DNA from: Mayamaea pseudoterrestris
Lineage: Eukaryota
Length of the DNA stretch: 64,000 nt
Reading direction: 5' to 3'
Assembly: GCA_027923505.1 (NCBI GenBank)
Contig: BROI01000003.1
Location: 1,488,001 to 1,552,000, forward strand
A program made the translations under genes and the position numbers. The notes under the pieces were generated by a model. The model was not told where the DNA came from. It ran no database searches and saw only the letters and a list, made by a program, of their open reading frames with translations. Positions 1 to 48,536 of the stretch are shown here, piece by piece; position 1 is the stretch's first letter; every line of letters starts with the position of its first letter.

Positions 1-1180
1 GCTGAGGGTCACACGCTCACGATCGTGAAGGATATACGGTTCGACGTCTGGCTGGCACGAGACTTTGCAGAGATTACGCTCCGCGACATTGGTTCATGCC
101 GTATCGCAGAACGGACGATGCGCGAAAAGGCACGCACTACGAATACGTTTGTGTATGTCGACGATTTAGCGATAGCGATGAAGAATCCGGAAGGAACTAA
201 CGGATCTTTTAATTGAGAACTACAACTACGTTGAAGGGCGTCGGTCCATTGGCATATCATTTGGGCGCAGACGTTTGGCGAGACGACGACGGCGTACTCT
301 GCTTCGAGCGAAGAAGTACGTCACAAGACTACTAGCGAACTACAAAGAAATGTTCGGCGAGGAACCGCGACCGCAGACAAGTCCACTACGCGACGGCGAC
401 TATCCGGAACTCGAGAAACGAAAGAACTGAGAGACGGAATTGCGAAGTATCAATCGATTGCGCGTTGTTGGTAAGTTTATGTCGATTCGACATTCATGCA
501 GTGTCATGACTATGGGGAGATTCCGAGCTGCGCCAATGAGCGGGGCACTTGGAACGGTTGAAGCATATTTGCGGATACTACGAAGATACCCGGATGGAGC
601 GATCTGATTCAACGTTTCGATTCCAACGGACGAGCCGATACACGCGATAGTTGACAAGATGGATTGGGATTACAGTGTGTACGGCAAGATCTGCGAAGGA
701 GCTTCCAGGAACATGCCATGCTGCGCGGCAAGGCGGTGCGAATGTCAACGTTCGAAGATGCGAACCTGTACCACGATTACATGACGGACGGGCAGCGATG
801 GCAACGCAATTTATTAATGGAAATAGTCGTTGATTGGTTTTCGAAACGCCAAGCGACGGTCGAGACGGACGGTCGAGCGCGTTTGTAGCAGCGAGAGAGG
901 AGCACGGAGCAGAAGGGATTGTAGATTTGGGAGTTCCGTCGAGGATATGGATGTTTGGAGACAACAAACGTGTAACGCAAAGCAGCAACCCATCGTACTC
1001 TAGTCTTCAAGCGACACAATGAGGATATCACTGAGTAGCGAAGATGGGGGAATTATTAATTTTAAATCTACATCATGGGAACGACAAACCCGGCGGATGT
1101 ACTTAACAAGTTTCTTCCACGGGACGGCAAGCAAGACTTAAAGAACCTGTCTTCAAGGAATCTAACTGGCAGGTGATTGA
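1..1180 (+). mobile_element. Ty1/copia (CoDi-like) LTR retrotransposon, RT-RNaseH segment, copy 1 (frameshifted; runs off the window start)
   Basis: Motifs scattered across frames: YVDDL (RT catalytic), SPLRDGDYPEL, HLERLKHICG, DWDYSVYG, FEDANLYHD, WFSKRQATVET, MFGDNK, TNPADVL-KF. Followed by a polypurine tract. Confidence 0.9.
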
Positions 1181-1429
1181 GGGGAGTTGCAGGATGCGAA
1201 CGAAAACAGCGAAAATGAGTCACACCGAATGTCCGAAGACAGGGATTCGGGTTCACCACAGTCACGACGGATGGGAGACGGTTCGAGCGATTCAACAAGT
1301 ATATTGGAAACTAGTGCGATATAGAGTAGAAACAAGCCAGACTTACCAAGCTTGAAGAGTTAAGAAAAGCGATTTATTCGTCTCGTATTGTAAAGTAAAT
1401 CAGTAAGCTTGGATTGGCCATCCAAGACA
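1179..1429 (+). repeat. Polypurine tract and putative 3' LTR (~240 bp) of copia copy 1
   Basis: GAGGGGAG at 1179-1186, then TG at 1188. Ends ...CTTGGATTGGCCATCCAAGACA (hairpin, then terminal CA at 1428-1429). Its 5' part recurs at ~3400-3500. Confidence 0.65.
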
Positions 1430-3500
1430 GCGCAAGCGAAAGGTGCAACGATGATTTGACCAAGTTACAAAAACTGCCGATTTAATCGAACGACAGATGA
1501 CGAAGTATACGAAAGATGAAAGTAATCGGACACGAGCTTAATTGAAACCGAACGATCCGCCATACAAAGGAAGTTCAAGTAACGCTCTCGCCGAATGAGA
1601 CGGAACGACGACGTCGGAGCTTCGCGATCATGAAGAAGGACGATCCGATAACGATCGCAGAGTATGGACTCAAGCACGGCTTACCTGGACACAGGGATGG
1701 AAGCAGCTGAGATTACACTCGGAAGCGAAAGAAGTTTCCGACAGATGTACAGGCAAAAAAAATCGAAAGCAAACGGGTACGCTACAATTTCGCGGCGCGA
1801 AGGGCGCGCAATTATAAAGATGGAAAGTCTCGACGAGATCAACGGCAACATCGCATGAGATGCATTGGCACGAATTAAATTAAACTCGCCAGAAAATATT
1901 ACCACACGTTCAGATCAAGGAGTCGGTATTGCGTGGGCGCGGGGGAAACGAATAAACGTGCACATGAATTGTCAAGCACGATTTGTGAGAAACAGGAGGA
2001 GGACAATGACAGAGCCGCCGAAGATTCATTTACTCGGGTGTTGTGTCATTACGAAGTCCGTAGCGGCGTTAGCGGAACTCAACGGTCTGAACTGGCAGCT
2101 GACGTCGGCAATGCATACTTTGGAAGCGAAAAACAAAAGAAAAGGTTTATATCGTGGCAGGTCCGGAGTTCGGGGAGGGTCACACGCTCACGATCGAAGG
2201 ATTATACGGTTTGCACGTGCACGCTGGCACCGAGCATCTTGCAGACACCCGCGACATTGGCTTCATGCCGTATCGTAGAACCGGACGTGTGGATGCGCCG
2301 AGCAAGGCACGCATCTACGAATACGTTTTGTGTATGTCGACGATTTAGCGAGCAGCGATGAAGAATCCGAAGGAACTAACGGATCTTTAAACGGAGAAAC
2401 ATAACTAGAGTTGAAGGGTCGGTCCATTGGTATATCATTTAGAGATTTGGCGAGACGACGACGGCGTACTCTGCTTGGAGCGAAGAAGTACGGGCCACAA
2501 GACTACCAGCGAACTACAAAGAAATGTTCGGCGAGGAACTGGCGACTGCAGACAAGTCCACTACGCGACGGCGATCATCCGGAACTCGACGAAACGAAAG
2601 AACTTGACGACGACGGAACGGCGGGGCACGAATCGATCAATTGGTGCGTTGCAATGGGCAGTAAGTTTATGTCGACCCGGGACATTCACTGCGCTGTCAT
2701 GACTATGGGAGATTCCCGAAAGGCGCCACGAGGGCACTTGGAACGGTTGAAGCATATTTGCGGATACTTACGACGATACCCGAAGGAGCGATTCGATTCA
2801 ACGTTTCGATTCCAACGGACGAAAGGGAAGTGGTGTTACAAGATGGATTGGGATTACAGTGTAATGGCAAGATCATGAGTTCTCGTGGAACATGCCCACG
2901 CCACGCTGCAAGGCGGTAAGAAATTGTCAACGTTCGGCGATGCCAACCTGTACCACGATTACATCAATGGACGGGCAGCGAAGGGCACGCAATGTTGAAT
3001 GGGACAGTCGTCGATTGGTTTTCGAAACGCCAAGCGACGGTCGAGATTTTCGCGATGTACGGCTGAGCCGTTTGTAGCAGCAAGAGCGGGAGCACGGAGC
3101 AGGATCATGATTCGCTTCACGCTACGCATAAGCTGTGGAGTTCCGCCTCGACGGACCTTCATGGATGTTTGGAGACAACAAGTCGGGTAACGCATAGCAG
3201 CAACCTACCGCACTCTAGTCTGACGAAGCGATTACAATGTAATTGGCATTTCACTTTGTAGAAGCGAATATTATTAATTTCAACCACATCATGGGAACGA
3301 CAACTGGCGGATGTGGCCTACCAAGTTTCTCCCACGGGCTACGGCAAGCACTCAAAGAACCTGCTCTTCAAGGAATCTAACTATTAGCATGAGAGGGGGT
3401 TGAGATGCGGAAAACGAAAACAGCGAAAATCGGAAGAGTTCGTCAATGAATGTCCGATAGGGTGACACAGCGGCACTCGCGGCTCACCACAGCCTCACGA
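1430..3500 (+). mobile_element. Ty1/copia segment, copy 2: pre-RT linker, RT, RNaseH, PPT and a truncated LTR
   Basis: DEINGN, MTEPPK, LAELNGL, ADVGNAY and AGPEFGEGHTL motifs. Bases 2179-3380 parallel bases 7-1170. PPT GAGAGGGGG at 3391-3399. The LTR is cut off by the satellite. Confidence 0.9.
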
Positions 3501-3517
3501 TCGCGTGATGCGTGGCA

Positions 3518-6500
3518 CGTGGCATACATGGTGAATGGATGATTAGGTGCCTGACCAACTTATGGCCCATCATTGACAACAAACATGATTGGAAAGAAAT
3601 TGGAGGGCTCAGCAGGCAATGCTGATGATCCTTGCAGCCAAAAAGGGAGCAGGGCTAACACATTTAACCAATGGTTGAATGTGCGGAGTCTCAGGGCATA
3701 GTGATGGCTTCGCACCCAAATGGACAAGTCTATGAGTCCCAATCAATCTTTCAGTCCATGTTGGTTGTATTATGGGGTCTGCAGGCCAATTTGGAAGTCT
3801 CACTTGCCACTTGAGGTGCACTGCTAGCAGATCCAACAAGTTGTTGGATCTGCTCAGTCTCACCATGGCGTACATGGTGATGGTTGCTGAGGTGCAACTG
3901 ACCAACTTATGGCCCATCATTGACAACAAACATGTTTGGAAAGAAATTGGAGGGCTCAGCGGGCAATGCTGATGATCCCTGCAGCCAAAATTTGAGCAGG
4001 GCTGGCACATTTAACCAATGGTTGAATGTGCGGAGTCTCAGGGCATGGTGATGGCTTCCACGCCCAAATGGACAAGTGTATGAGCCCCAATCAATGTTCA
4101 AGTCCTTACAGGTTGTATTATGGGGTCTGCAGGCCATTTTGGAAGTCTCACTTGCCACTTGAGGTGCACCGCTAGCAGATCCAACAAGTTGTTGGATATG
4201 CTCAGTCTCACCGTGGCATACATGGTGATGGATGCTGAGGTGCAACTGACCAACTTATGGCCCATCACACTTCATGACAAAAAATATGATTTGAAAGAAA
4301 TGGGCTCAGCAGGCAATGCTGATGATCCCTGCAGCCAAAAAGGGAGCAGGGCTGGCACATTCAACCAATGTTTGAATGTGCGGAGTCTCAGGGCATAATG
4401 ATGGCTTCCACACCCAAATGGACAAGTCTATGAGCCTTATTAAATGTTCCAGTCCATGTTGGCTGTATTATGGGGTCTGCAGGCCATTTTGGAAGTCTCA
4501 CTGGCTACATGAGGTGCACCACTAGCAGATCCAACAAGTTGTTGGATCTGCTCAGTCTCACTGTGGCATACATGGTGATGGATGCTGAGGTGCAACTGAC
4601 CAACTTATGGCCCATCATTGACAAAAAACTTGATTGGAAAGAAATTGGAGGGCTCAGTGGGCAATGCTGATGATCCCTGCAGCCAAAATAGAAGCAGGGC
4701 TGGCACATTCAACCATTGGATGAATGTGCACAGTATCAGGGCATAGTGATGGCTTCCACACCCAAATGGACAAGTCTATGAGCCCCAATCAATGTTCAAG
4801 TCCATGTTGGCTGTATTATGGGGTCTGCAGGCCAATTTGGAAGTCTCACTTGCCACTTGAGGTGCACCGCCAGCAGATCCAACAATTTGTTGGATCTGCT
4901 CAGTCTCACCGTGGCATACATGGTGATGGATGCTGAGGTGCAACTGACCAAACTTATGGCCCATCATTGATGACAAACATGATTGGAAAGAAATTGGAGG
5001 GCTCAGCGGGCAATGCTGATGATCCCTGCAGCCAAAATGGGAGCAGGGCTGGCACATTCAACCAATGGTTGAATATGCGGAGTCTCAGGGCATGGTGATG
5101 GCATCCACACCCAAATGGACAAGTCTATGAGCCCCTATCAATGTTCCAGTCCATGTTGGCTGTATTATGGGGTTGGCAGGCCATTTTGGAAGTCTCACTG
5201 CCTCTTGAGGTGCACCGCTAGCAGATCCAACAAGTTGTTGCATCAGCTCAGTCTTACCATCACATACATGGTGATGGATGCTGAGGTGCAACTGACCAAC
5301 TTATGGCCCACCATTGACAACAAACATGATTTGAAAGAAATTGGAGGACTCAGTGGGCAATGCTGATGATCCCTGCAGCCAAAATGGGAGCAGGGCTGGC
5401 ACATTCAACCATTGGTTGAATGTGCGCAGTATCAGGGCATAGTGATGGCTTCCACACCCATATGGACAAGTCTATGAGTCCCAATCAATGTTCCAGTCCT
5501 TACAGGTTGTATTATGGGGTCTGCAGGCCATTTTGGAAGTCTCACTTGCCACTTGAGGTGCACCGCTAGCAGATCCAACAAGTTGTTGGATCTGCTCAGT
5601 CTCACCGTGGCATACATGGTGATGGATGATGAGGTGCAACTGACCAACTTATGGCCCATCATTGACAACAAACATGATTGGAAAGAAATTGGAGGGCTCA
5701 GCGGGCAATGCTGATGATCCCTGCAGCCAAAATAGAAGCAGGGCTGGCACATTCAACCAATGGTTGAATGTGCACAGTATCAGGGCATAGTGATGGCTTC
5801 CACACCCAAATGGACAAGTCTATGAGCCCCAATCAATATTCCAGTCCATGTTGGCTGTATTATGAGGTCTGCAGGCCATTTTGAAGTCTCACTTGCCACT
5901 TGAGGTGCACTGCTAGCAGATCCAACAAGTTGTTGGATATGCTCAGTCTCACTGTGGCGTACATGGTGATGGATGCTGAGGTGCAACTGACCAACTTATG
6001 GCCCATCATGCTTCATGACAACAAACATGATTGGAAAGAAATTGGAGGGCTCAGCGGGCAATGCTGATGATCCCTGCAGCCAAAATGGGAGCAGGGCTGG
6101 CACATTCAACCAATGGTTGAATGTGCGGAGTCTCAGGGCATAGTGATGGCTTCCACACCCAAATGGACAAGTCTATGAGCCCCAATCAATGTTCCAGTCC
6201 ATGTTGGCTGTATTATGGGGTCTGCAGGCCATTTTGGAAGTCTCACTTGCCACTTGAGGTGCACCGCTAGCAGATCCAACAAGTTGTTGGATCTGCTCAG
6301 TCTCACCGTGGCATACATGGTGATGGATGCTGAGGTGCAACTGACCAACTTATGGCCCATCATTGACAACAAACATGATTGAAAGAAATTGGAGGGCTCA
6401 GCGGGCAATGCTGATGATACCTGCAGTTAAAATGGGAGCAGGGCTGGCACATTCAACCATTGGTTGAATGTGCGGAGTCTCAGGGCATAGTGATGGCTTC

Positions 6501-6650
6501 CACACCCAAATGGACAAGTCTATGAGTCCCAATCAATGTTCAAGTCCTTATAGGTTGTATTATGGGGTCTGCATGCCAATTTGGAAGTCTCACATGCCAC
6601 TTGAGGTGCACCGCTAGCAGATCCAACCATTTGTTGGATCTGCCCAGTCT
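3518..6650. repeat. Tandem satellite array, ~9 units of ~348 bp, two palindromes per unit
   Basis: The anchor CTGACCAAC(TTATGG), with a 1-nt insertion at 4944, starts at 3551, 3898, 4246, 4596, 4944, 5292, 5640, 5987 and 6341. Spacing is 347-354 bp. Confidence 0.98.
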
Positions 6651-6862
6651 AATTACTTGGTGTTAGGTTCCTCCCACAACTTCTTGTCCATATTCATAAA
6701 TGTAATGTTCTTTTGTTCATTTACAATATGGAGTACCTGGTTATTTCCTCGGTAGACTGCAATGCCATTGGATATGACGCAAAAGCTAAATGAGAAAACC
6801 AGTGCGACAGGCTTTTAGTGACTGACTCACCGATTGCGTTCGAAGGTCGCCATGATCACATC

Positions 6863-8119
6863 ATGATGTTGTTAATCCCACGGAAAGGTCGCTACATATT
6901 GCTCTTTCAGATCACTGCACTCCTCTGTAACTTTCAAGAAATTGCGGCTCTCAAATCTTTATCTATTGATCGAAGAATGTTACTCCGACGGCTATCGAAC
7001 ATAGCTACCACAACTCTTACATTCGCCTTGACGACGTCGTCAAATGCCTTCGCATTTTCTTCGCAGAACTCAGCAATGACATCATCGAATGTGGTATCAG
7101 GATCAAATCCTACTACACAAGTCGCATACAAGTCGTTTCAACTACCCATGGGTAATTTTGGAGTCAGTGTTCCTGTCGCTTGCTGGTTTCCATTCCCAAG
7201 TGATGCCTCTAAAAGTGAATCTTTTTCTTTCGACAAAACTGCGACTGATAATCCTGTCCGATACGAGCACCGAATATCCGTTAAGCGAATCGGACAGCTA
7301 TTAGCTGGTTGGAATTTCATTCCAGACTTTACATCGCGCAAGTTTTCACTCAGTCCAGGCTTGCCGAAAGTGATGGACGCACAAAATTGTCACCTTCCAA
7401 CCTCGGCACCTCTTGTTCTATTGGCACATGGGTACCTTGGAAGTCGGTTCGATCTCAGTCACTTGGCAGAAAAGCTAGCGTCTGAAGGATTTGTCTGCGT
7501 GGCGGCAGAATACCCCGAGTCTCTGGCTGCTTCTTATGATCGCGTTGAAGGATTGACGCGTCAAGACATCAACACCAAGCTATTGAATTGCATACAGAAT
7601 GACTTGAGTATGACACCAAGGAGCTACGGCATTGTTGGACATTCGCTAGGTTGCGGGACTGCGATTGATACAGGCGATGAACGCTGGGCAAGAGTGTGTA
7701 TTGCTGGTTTTCCGCGACGTCGCGACGGATCACCGATCGAAGGGAATCTGCTGTTTCTGACGTCCATGAATGATGGTGCTGTGTCCTTGGCTCGATTCGG
7801 AGGTAAAGCTGCAATGCCTTCTGACATTACTGTGTTGGAGGAAACCTCGTTGGAGGGAGTGATTGGTTCAAACAACATACCGAAACGTGCCGCAGTCATT
7901 TTCGACCGGCCCGATGCGCCGAATCACATTTCTTTTCTAGCTGAAGGCGTCAATGACGCAATGATTGACTTGCTTTCGCCGCTACTTCCCGTGGCGCAGT
8001 CGCTCAGCATTCCTGTTCTAGATTTCGACCGGTACCAGACCAGTCGAGATAGTTTGGCAGCAGCTAACGCGTACCAACCGTTGGTTGTTGCGTATCTAAA
8101 ACAACAGATGAAGGCATGA
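6863..8119 (+). CDS. Alpha/beta hydrolase (PAF-acetylhydrolase/chlorophyllase-like), probably plastid or thylakoid targeted
   Basis: LLAHGYLGSRFD, nucleophile motif GHSLG, candidate Asp (NDG) and His (NHISF). N-terminal signal peptide followed by DRR...hydrophobic...AFA. Confidence 0.8.
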   Translation: MMLLIPRKGRYILLFQITALLCNFQEIAALKSLSIDRRMLLRRLSNIATTTLTFALTTSSNAFAFSSQNSAMTSSNVVSGSNPTTQVAYKSFQLPMGNFGVSVPVACWFPFPSDASKSESFSFDKTATDNPVRYEHRISVKRIGQLLAGWNFIPDFTSRKFSLSPGLPKVMDAQNCHLPTSAPLVLLAHGYLGSRFDLSHLAEKLASEGFVCVAAEYPESLAASYDRVEGLTRQDINTKLLNCIQNDLSMTPRSYGIVGHSLGCGTAIDTGDERWARVCIAGFPRRRDGSPIEGNLLFLTSMNDGAVSLARFGGKAAMPSDITVLEETSLEGVIGSNNIPKRAAVIFDRPDAPNHISFLAEGVNDAMIDLLSPLLPVAQSLSIPVLDFDRYQTSRDSLAAANAYQPLVVAYLKQQMKA

Positions 8120-47747: not shown

Positions 47748-48472
47748 ATGCAAACACATGGAATATTGCTCTGTTTGTGGGGTCTTTGTATCATCTCGTC
47801 GGTCGTGGTGTCTTTGGCTGCGTCGTTCCAGCCATCGCTGCGGCCGTCTCGGACAAAATCCCAATCGCGGCACATCATCGGTTTATCGACTAATGATGAT
47901 ACTATCAGATTGTCGGTTCAAGATTTTGAATTTCGCCTTCGAGACGCTCAATACAACGAACTCGGGCAGGTTGCCGATGTTATCATGAGCTCATTCTACA
48001 GTAATTCTACTACCCCTTGGAGACAAATGTTTCGACTAGCGGAACTGAATCGAATCCAGCAAAATTTCCCACACGAAGACAAGGAGGTGCACCGGCATAT
48101 AGTCGCTGTGACCGTGGTCAAAGGAGAGGAGCAGGTGATTGGATTCTGTGATCTCGACGATCGATTACCCAATCTGAACACTGGATATAGCTGCAATCCG
48201 CGGCCATACGTTTCAGATCTGTGTATCTCGCCTCAGTGGCGGCGAAGAGGTGTAGCCAAAGCTATCATTCAAGAATCTGAGACGTACAGTCGTGAAAAGC
48301 TCAAGAAGGAGGATATCTACATACGAGTCGAAAGTCACAACGAACAGGCTCTTACGTTGTACGAGAGTCTAGGCTATTGCAAAATATACAATCCAGACAG
48401 TCCAAAAAAGCAAATATTTTTGTTGCGCAAGGAGCTACGGGTGGTCGGCGAAGCTATCATAGAGGAATCGTT

Positions 48473-48533
<61 letters not shown>

Positions 48534-48536
48534 TGA
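47748..48536 (+). CDS. GNAT acetyltransferase, probably plastid-targeted, with C-terminal Q20
   Basis: YVSDLCISPQWRRRGVA and N..AL.LYESLGY. Signal peptide ending AAS-F. Confidence 0.88.
48474..48533 (+). repeat. (CAG)19CAA microsatellite
   Basis: Perfect trinucleotide run directly before the TGA stop. Confidence 0.98.

What the first reader, a model, noticed from the sequence alone, without database searches (positions are those of the whole stretch)
3518..6650. Satellite with two homologous palindromes per unit that differ only by compensatory changes
Seen: each 348-bp unit contains P1 GCACATTCAACCA-A-TGGTTGAATGTGC (e.g. 5747-5773) and P2 AGCAGATCCAACAA-G-TTGTTGGATCTGCT (e.g. 5568-5596). 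The arms are homologous, with consensus GCASATYCAACMA. They differ at three positions, and each change is mirrored on the opposite arm, so both palindromes stay perfect. The unpaired centre base varies between copies (A/T in P1, G/T in P2). Both palindromes are followed by AGTCTCA..GGCATA..GTGATGG. Inference: symmetry is maintained, either by selection (dimeric protein site, cruciform, recombinase or resolvase site, hairpin RNA) or by intra-palindrome repair. This is a candidate functional chromosomal element such as a centromeric or boundary array.
Basis: partly seen in the sequence, partly recalled or inferred. Interest (0 to 1): 0.8.

Follow-up and report, generated by a model that had tools for sequence, protein, structure and literature searches.

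The report
Abundant diatom satellite with paired palindromes
This is a small local array of a very abundant diatom satellite repeat whose two sub-units each carry a near-perfect palindrome that stayed self-complementary while its letters changed; satellites with such palindromes are a known kind, and no function is shown here.

Summary
Window 3518-6650 is a 348-bp x 9.0 tandem array. Every unit carries P1 (13-bp arms) and P2 (14-bp arms). P1 and P2 differ at three arm positions, each mirrored. New here: the unit is an old head-to-tail dimer of a ~174-bp monomer (halves 57.5% identical, z=7.7), so P1 and P2 are paralogues. Six differences falling as three complementary pairs has chance about 5e-5. 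Within the array there is no compensation. All 12 arm changes are one-sided, only 9 of 18 palindromes are perfect, and arms vary no less than non-CpG flanks (2.5% vs 3.8%, p=0.18). The family is very abundant: summed contig depth is about 2,500-6,800 times the single-copy flank in one run and 700-2,300 times in another. It is CpG-depleted (o/e 0.15-0.18 vs 1.06). The host is a diatom. Best reading: an ordinary, probably methylated satellite whose dyads are kept paired by a pairing-dependent process, template switching or selection on a cruciform. A centromere role is untested and does not fit known diatom centromeres. The kind is known, for example the mollusc satellite phBglII400.

The parts
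3518..6650 (+). Tandem array: 348-bp unit x 9.0, each unit a dimer of two ~174-bp diverged monomers
   Evidence: TRF; unit alignment; half-versus-half alignment
3658..3684 (.). P1 copy, unit 1 (2 arm mismatches, centre A)
3826..3854 (.). P2 copy, unit 1 (perfect, centre G)
4005..4031 (.). P1 copy, unit 2 (1 arm mismatch, centre A)
4174..4202 (.). P2 copy, unit 2 (1 arm mismatch, centre G)
4355..4381 (.). P1 copy, unit 3 (1 arm mismatch, centre A)
4524..4552 (.). P2 copy, unit 3 (perfect, centre G)
4703..4729 (.). P1 copy, unit 4 (1 arm mismatch, centre T)
4872..4900 (.). P2 copy, unit 4 (perfect, centre T)
5052..5078 (.). P1 copy, unit 5 (1 arm mismatch, centre A)
5220..5248 (.). P2 copy, unit 5 (2 arm mismatches, centre G)
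5399..5425 (.). P1 copy, unit 6 (perfect, centre T)
5568..5596 (.). P2 copy, unit 6 (perfect, centre G)
5747..5773 (.). P1 copy, unit 7 (perfect, centre A)
5915..5943 (.). P2 copy, unit 7 (1 arm mismatch, centre G)
6100..6126 (.). P1 copy, unit 8 (perfect, centre A)
6269..6297 (.). P2 copy, unit 8 (perfect, centre G)
6447..6473 (.). P1 copy, unit 9 (perfect, centre T)
6616..6644 (.). P2 copy, unit 9 (2 arm mismatches, centre T); the array ends 6 nt after it
6072..6096 (.). Example of a third, imperfect dyad (11-nt arms, 82% complementary) just 5' of P1; it appears in every MFE and centroid fold

Best explanation
Window 3518-6650 is one short interstitial array of a very abundant satellite DNA family of a diatom. 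The 348-bp unit is an old head-to-tail dimer of a ~174-bp (nucleosome-sized) monomer. Each monomer carries a 27-29-nt palindrome followed by a shared block (AGTCTCA..GGCATA..GTGATGG). Since the two monomers split, the palindrome letters changed at three positions per arm, but complementarity between the arms was kept. What is conserved is therefore intrastrand pairing, not a particular sequence. I take the most likely mechanism to be pairing-dependent. The dyad folds back as a DNA hairpin or cruciform during replication. One-sided changes are then either erased or copied to the other arm by replication template switching (quasi-palindrome correction), and the re-perfected variant spreads by array homogenisation. 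The satellite itself is probably methylated, silent repeat DNA. Shown here: the array, the dimer structure, the mirrored differences, the high abundance and the CpG decay. Inferred: hairpin formation in vivo, template switching as the corrector, and methylation.
For: Array. The halves centred on P1 and P2 align globally with score 40, against -43 +/- 11 for 300 shuffles (z=7.7). Identity is 107/186 overall, 20/27 in the palindrome and 87/159 outside it. All 6 arm differences between P1 and P2 form 3 mirrored complementary pairs. The chance of that, given 6 differences in 26 positions, is 4.6e-5. In the formal count, 3 of 13 pairs change on both sides and 94.9% of cells are paired, against 25-35% when the partner is slid. 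No shuffle of 500 reaches the covariation score. Positions that are free to differ between P1 and P2 are still always mirrored, which argues for pairing rather than base-specific protein readout (inference). One pair is C:G to G:C, which has no wobble intermediate, so a one-step double change fits well. Template switching is reported to create and repair perfect stems in this way (PMC8794818, abstract and introduction read). Single strands of a unit fold better than shuffles, with P1 and P2 in the MFE and centroid structures (z -4.1 to -4.7). In P1 the centre alternates A/T, which is what a loop inversion would give (weak). Abundance: in X1, 3,353 contig pieces lie on the unit, with summed word depth 246k-673k against 98.8 on the unique flank. 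In X2 there are 1,177 pieces, with 21k-68k against 29.2 (the tool warns that this is not a copy number). Some loose ends start right beside the palindromes (place 6443 'before', place 6296 'behind'). This hints at sub-families that keep the dyad while the flank has diverged (weak). CpG o/e is 0.15-0.18 in the array and 1.06 in the rest of the window. The remaining CpG positions vary at 13/61, against 97/2530 for other positions.
Against: Inside this array nothing is being corrected. There are 12 one-sided arm changes and no compensated ones, and 9 of 18 copies are imperfect. Arms are not significantly less variable than non-CpG flanks (p=0.18 by cells, p=0.59 by columns). The three compensations all sit on the single P1/P2 split, so they may be one or two events. 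The covariation statistics are inflated by that two-clade structure. In the genome-wide contig data a P1 position next to the loop (6462 G>T) is about 50% variant in X1. Its partner 6458 is not among the 40 rows shown, but 71 rows were not shown. This looks uncompensated but remains unresolved. There is no evidence here for hairpin extrusion in vivo or for methylation. Selection on a functional structure would give the same pattern.
Confidence: 0.5

Rival explanations
1. Selected non-B-DNA element of a satellite centromere or pericentromere. The dyads extrude as cruciforms that help to specify or stabilise CENH3 chromatin, and selection keeps them perfect.
For: The monomer is ~174 bp and the family is very abundant. 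There are strong dyad symmetries, as proposed for centromeric satellites (PMC5889037, abstract read). Complementarity was kept across the monomer split.
Against: This array is only 3.1 kb. It sits between decayed repeats and a gene in a gene-dense window. Its GC is 43-55% per 100 bp. The diatom centromeres described so far are short low-GC regions without highly repeated elements (passages of 10.1101/2021.11.10.468027). Within the array the arms decay like the flanks. No chromosome-wide map or CENH3 data could be obtained.
Confidence: 0.15
2. Binding site of a homodimeric DNA-binding protein (two paralogous sites per unit), read as double-stranded DNA, in the manner of a CENP-B-box-like satellite motif.
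For: The palindrome plus the shared downstream block AGTCTCA..GGCATA..GTGATGG is the best-aligned stretch of the two monomers. AGTCTCA occurs three times per unit, always on one strand.
Against: A dimeric protein constrains identity at contacted bases and nothing at the others. Here the three positions that changed in identity are still perfectly mirrored, and pairing runs through all 13-14 positions up to the centre. Identity in the palindrome (20/27) is only modestly above the flanks (87/159).
Confidence: 0.1
3. Transposon-borne satellite. The repeats are the internal tandem repeats of a Helitron/Helentron-like or MITE-like element, and the palindrome is a recognition hairpin for a Rep or transposase, or an abutted-terminal-repeat junction.
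For: Satellite-like arrays carried by Helentron-type elements, and palindromes at repeat junctions, are described in bivalves (PMC5139131 passages; PMC7492417 seen only in the listing). Both ends of this array lie 6-10 nt 3' of a P2 position. The array abuts decayed repeat copies.
Against: No terminal inverted repeats or target-site duplication flank the array. No other unit copy or fragment occurs in the 64-kb window. No Pfam domain was found in the array ORFs or the adjacent decayed copies. If monomers were elements with terminal repeats, each element's own two ends would match only 10/13, while the junctions are perfect. That is the reverse of what a transposase would maintain.
Confidence: 0.1
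4. Transcribed hairpin RNA. The array is a source of structured RNA or small RNAs, or a self-cleaving RNA as in retrozyme-type satellites.
For: RNA folds of both strands are more stable than shuffles (z -4.1 and -4.7).
Against: No Rfam family reaches its gathering score. The best matches are 25 bits against a cut-off of 40 and 26.5 against 100. From my general knowledge, stems of 13-14 bp are short for Dicer substrates. The C:G to G:C change has no wobble path.
Confidence: 0.05

Closest known systems
phBglII400 satellite DNA of molluscs (PMC5139131, passages read)
   Same: The monomer of about 400 bp is internally repetitive (two alignable halves). Each half carries a palindrome. Array-to-flank junctions map at the palindromes (13 of 16 at the longer one). 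In this window both array ends lie 6-10 nt from a P2 position.
   Different: It comes from an unrelated organism, and homology could not be tested because no sequence was at hand. Its palindromes are 10 and 12 bp. Mirrored differences between the two palindromes were not mentioned in the passages I read.
Dyad-symmetric centromeric satellites (Kasinathan and Henikoff 2018, PMC5889037, abstract read)
   Same: [quoted passage not shown]
   Different: Those dyads are under 10 bp. Here the arms are 13-14 bp and nearly spacer-free. Centromere location is not shown here. The diatom centromeres described so far are low-GC and repeat-free.
Template-switch (quasi-palindrome) correction of hairpins (Monttinen and Loytynoja 2022, PMC8794818, abstract and introduction read; PMC5453318 seen only in the listing)
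   Same: Perfect stems with multi-base compensatory changes that can arise in one replication event.
   Different: That was described for RNA genes and human mutation clusters, not for satellite monomers.
Dimeric higher-order satellite repeats
   Same: Two diverged monomers (57.5% identical) are homogenised together as one 348-bp unit.
   Different: The monomers are much more diverged than the copies of the unit (about 91% matches between copies). No higher order beyond the dimer was seen.

Membership tests
Satellite DNA | Head-to-tail tandem units | tested here: met
   348 bp x 9.0 copies, 91% matches
Satellite DNA | High copy number across the genome | tested here: met
   Summed contig depth on the unit is about 2,500-6,800 times (X1) and 700-2,300 times (X2) the single-copy flank, from 3,353 and 1,177 pieces. 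This is a rough index; the tool warns it is not a copy number.
Satellite DNA | Non-coding | tested here: met
   Stops occur in all frames within each unit. 0 of 5 array ORFs hit Pfam. No Rfam family reaches gathering.
Satellite DNA | Long arrays (tens of kb or more) in heterochromatin | not testable with these tools
   No whole genome is held. Only this 3.1-kb array could be seen.
Dimeric higher-order repeat | The two halves of the unit are homologous | tested here: met
   z=7.7 against 300 shuffles; 107/186 identical
Centromeric satellite | CENH3 association; one major block per chromosome | not testable with these tools
   No ChIP data and no genome-wide map
Diatom centromere of the Phaeodactylum/Fistulifera type | Cluster of 100-bp windows at or below 32% GC, without highly repeated elements | tested here: not met
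   Array 100-bp windows have 43-55% GC. Only 2 of 640 windows in the 64 kb are at or below 32%, and never more than 1 per 3 kb. The criterion is from passages of 10.1101/2021.11.10.468027.
MITE / DNA transposon with terminal inverted repeats | Terminal inverted repeats and a target-site duplication around the element | tested here: not met
   Only 6-8-nt chance matches between 3300-3530 and 6631-6900
Helitron/Helentron-borne tandem repeats | Constant element ends with a subterminal hairpin; Rep/helicase master copy | tested here: inconclusive
   The last unit ends 6 nt after the P2 hairpin. Internal units read differently at that place, the 5' boundary shows no defined end, and no Rep/helicase was looked for beyond the Pfam scans. 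The end motifs are recalled, not tested.
Known structured RNA or ribozyme satellites (Rfam) | Match to a covariance model at its gathering score | tested here: not met
   10 matches at E<=10, none near gathering

The most novel reading that the evidence does not exclude
This pennate-like diatom, unlike Phaeodactylum and Fistulifera, may build its centromeres or heterochromatin on a nucleosome-sized satellite. In that reading the 13-14-bp-arm dyads are selected cruciform-forming elements, and the mirrored P1/P2 differences record selection on DNA shape rather than sequence. It would be the first satellite-based, structure-specified centromere in diatoms.
Probability: 0.12. Interest if true: 0.75.

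Novelty: new member of a known kind. Interest (0 to 1): 0.4.

Why it matters
My two literature searches returned no description of an abundant diatom satellite. The diatom centromeres described so far are repeat-free. An abundant, CpG-decayed, nucleosome-sized satellite with conserved dyads is therefore a useful marker for heterochromatin, methylation and chromosome architecture in this lineage. The P1/P2 pair is also a clean natural case for asking whether perfect palindromes in non-coding repeats are kept by selection or by template-switch repair. As it stands it is a well-formed example of a known satellite feature, not a new kind of element.

Tried and rejected
- **Whole genome and earlier findings:** Genome-wide mapping and a full covariation test were therefore impossible.
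- **Metagenome scan:** the pattern left the three variable pairs as N. It gave 1 locus (L001), a chance match inside a coding-looking stretch and not a palindrome.
- **Viral contigs:** 0 matches.
- **Sequencing runs:** 8 runs from 2 studies; no RNA holder is listed, so nothing can be said on expression.
- **Runs X6 and X7 (organisms C and D):** they hold 174 and 79 satellite pieces at summed depth of about 60-480 but none of the unique flank. They come from the same study as X1, where the satellite is about 1,000 times deeper, and their likeness spectrum is similar. Carry-over or a minor admixture explains them as well as a shared satellite would, so I do not count them as cross-species conservation.
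- **Rfam:** nothing reaches gathering.
- **Pfam:** nothing on the array ORFs or on the decayed upstream copies. My 'copia-like' impression of those copies rests only on recalled motifs.
- **Element boundaries:** no terminal repeats or target duplication.
- **Array extensions into the flanks:** left p=0.29, right p=0.05. The '9.0 copies with the same phase at both ends' hint (re-inserted circle) is therefore marginal and was dropped as evidence.
- **Order above the dimer:** none is clear.
- **Abutted-terminal-repeat (tandem MITE) model:** rejected, because the junctions are perfect while each element's own two ends would match only 10/13.
- **Palindrome letters in papers:** one unrelated primer hit.
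- **Centre-base hypervariability:** 5/18 cells, but only 2 columns and shared descent between units, so it is not significant.

Full report
**1. The observation**

Tandem Repeats Finder reports one large array at 3518-6650. Its period is 348 bp, with 9.0 copies, 91% matches and 1% indels. I cut the array into nine units and aligned them.

A degenerate 27-nt pattern covering both finds 18 matches in the 64-kb window. All 18 lie inside the array, and none appears in 100 shuffles.

The consensus arms differ at three positions, and each difference is mirrored on the other arm. The centre base varies: P1 has A in 6 copies and T in 3, and P2 has G in 7 and T in 2. The block AGTCTCA..GGCATA..GTGATGG follows both palindromes.

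Only 9 of 18 copies are perfect. The other 9 carry one or two one-sided arm changes each.

**2. What the unit is**

I centred one half of the unit on P1 and the other on P2. The two 174-bp halves align over most of their length. The score is 40, against -43 +/- 11 for 300 shuffles (z=7.7). Identity is 107/186.

The 348-bp unit is therefore an old head-to-tail dimer of a ~174-bp monomer, and P1 and P2 are paralogues. Identity is 20/27 in the palindrome and 87/159 outside it.

Given six differences among 26 arm positions, the chance that they fall as three mirrored, complementary pairs is 4.6e-5. The formal count on the 18 copies (12 distinct) gives:
- 94.9% of cells paired, against 25-35% when the partner is slid;
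- three pairs with changes on both sides;
- 0 of 500 shuffles reaching the covariation score.

All three pairs sit on the single P1/P2 split. They may therefore represent very few events.

**3. Inside the array there is no compensation**

All 12 arm substitutions are one-sided. Arms differ from the consensus in 12/486 cells. All other positions differ in 110/2591 (p=0.075).

Much of the flank variation sits at CpG positions, which vary in 13/61 cells. Against non-CpG flanks (97/2530) the arms are not distinguishable: p=0.18 by cells, and 10/54 against 66/285 variable columns gives p=0.59.

The signal lies only in the deep P1/P2 comparison.

**4. Context**

The host is a diatom. A DUF2009 protein encoded in the window has its best non-self relative at 70% identity. 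Named hits include Amphora coffeaeformis (60%) and Fistulifera solaris (57%). The window's own contig is 1.59 Mb.

The window is gene-dense with about 48% GC. Upstream of the array lie two decayed direct copies, 4-1216 and 2175-3430, which are 78.8% identical. Pfam does not recognise them. Downstream, a hydrolase-like ORF starts about 170 bp after the array.

Several searches for a known element type came back empty:
- no other copy or fragment of the unit lies in the window;
- no terminal inverted repeats or target duplication flank the array;
- the array ORFs have no Pfam match;
- no Rfam family reaches its gathering score.

**5. Genome-wide abundance**

No genome is held. I therefore laid public contig sets on about 1.1 units plus the right flank.

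| Run | Contig pieces on the unit | Summed word depth on the unit | Depth on the unique flank |
|---|---|---|---|
| X1 | 3,353 | 246k-673k | 98.8 |
| X2 (a second study) | 1,177 | 21k-68k | 29.2 |

The tool warns that this is not a copy number. As a rough index it indicates on the order of a thousand or more copies.

Contigs in both runs bridge the array-to-flank junction (records 8 and 16), so the junction is real.

Two further runs, X6 and X7, hold satellite pieces at low depth without the flank. They share a study with X1 and show the same likeness spectrum, so I do not count them as other species.

Among the 40 variant rows shown (71 more were not shown), the palindromes carry two:
- the outermost P2 pair (6297 T>C, 9-28%);
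- a P1 position beside the loop (6462 G>T, about 50% in X1), whose partner 6458 is not listed.

Some loose ends begin right at the palindrome edges. This hints at sub-families that keep the dyad while the flank has diverged.

**6. CpG decay**

CpG observed/expected is 0.18 in the unit consensus and 0.15 in the array. It is 1.06 in the rest of the window and 1.49 in the upstream copies. The few remaining CpGs are the most variable positions. This is the usual footprint of long-term cytosine methylation, so the satellite is probably methylated repeat DNA. That is an inference, not a measurement.

**7. Mechanism**

Positions that were free to change identity between P1 and P2 stayed mirrored, and pairing runs through every arm position. 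This argues for intrastrand pairing rather than base-specific readout by a dimeric protein.

One change is C:G to G:C, which has no wobble intermediate. Single strands of a unit fold better than shuffles, with P1 and P2 always formed.

Replication template switching is reported to create and re-perfect stems, including multi-base compensatory changes in one event (PMC8794818, abstract and introduction). I therefore favour pairing-dependent correction plus array homogenisation. Selection on a cruciform is the main rival (PMC5889037, abstract). The present data cannot separate the two.

**8. Centromere reading**

The diatom centromeres described so far are short low-GC regions without highly repeated elements (passages). 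This array has 43-55% GC per 100 bp. The window contains no cluster of low-GC windows and no telomere repeats. The high abundance elsewhere keeps a structural role possible, but it is untested.

**9. Comparison with known cases**

The closest described case I found is the mollusc satellite phBglII400. Its monomer is internally repetitive, with a palindrome in each half, and array junctions map at the palindromes (PMC5139131, passages). Here both array ends lie 6-10 nt from a P2 position. The flank-extension tests (left p=0.29, right p=0.05) make the exact ends uncertain.

My searches found no paper describing an abundant diatom satellite and none printing these palindromes.

**10. Verdict**

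The feature is real and well formed: a new member of a known kind, namely satellite DNA with conserved dyads. The functional proposals remain open.

Noticed in passing
window 3518-6650: Strong CpG depletion of the satellite (o/e 0.15-0.18, against 1.06 in the rest of the window). The four remaining CpGs per unit are the most variable positions (13/61 cells, against 97/2530). This is a likely footprint of cytosine methylation.
   Followed up: partly
window 4-1216 and 2175-3430: Two decayed direct copies (78.8% identical over about 1.3 kb) full of stops, ending just before the array. By recall they look like a retroelement pol fragment, but Pfam finds nothing. Their CpG o/e is 1.49, the opposite of the satellite.
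   Followed up: partly
unit consensus positions 137, 247, 307 (e.g. window 6129, 6239, 6299): The heptamer AGTCTCA occurs three times per unit, always on the + strand. There are 22 in the array, against 6 (+) and 1 (-) in the other 60.9 kb. Two copies follow the palindromes and the third lies about 30 nt before P2.
   Followed up: partly
window 6072-6096 and the same place in other units: A third, imperfect hairpin (11-nt arms, 82% complementary) sits directly 5' of P1 and appears in all folds. The homologous place before P2 has only a weak overlapping dyad.
   Followed up: no
window 6462 (P1 of unit 9), from public contigs: About half of the summed depth in run X1 reads T instead of G at an arm position next to the loop. 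The partner position is not among the rows shown, so this is possibly a common uncompensated or P2-like variant.
   Followed up: no
runs X6 and X7 laid on window 6255-6650: Satellite pieces are present at low depth in two other coded organisms of the same study, without the unique flank. This could be a shared satellite or carry-over between libraries.
   Followed up: no
window 4269-4274 and 6010-6015: Units 3 and 8 share a 6-bp insertion at the same place, and units 4 and 9 share several variants, including T at both palindrome centres. This hints at a five-unit spacing, but mean differences by lag show no clear higher order.
   Followed up: partly
window 48473-48532: A perfect (GCA)x20 microsatellite lies inside a 262-aa ORF (47748-48536, + strand).
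   Followed up: no
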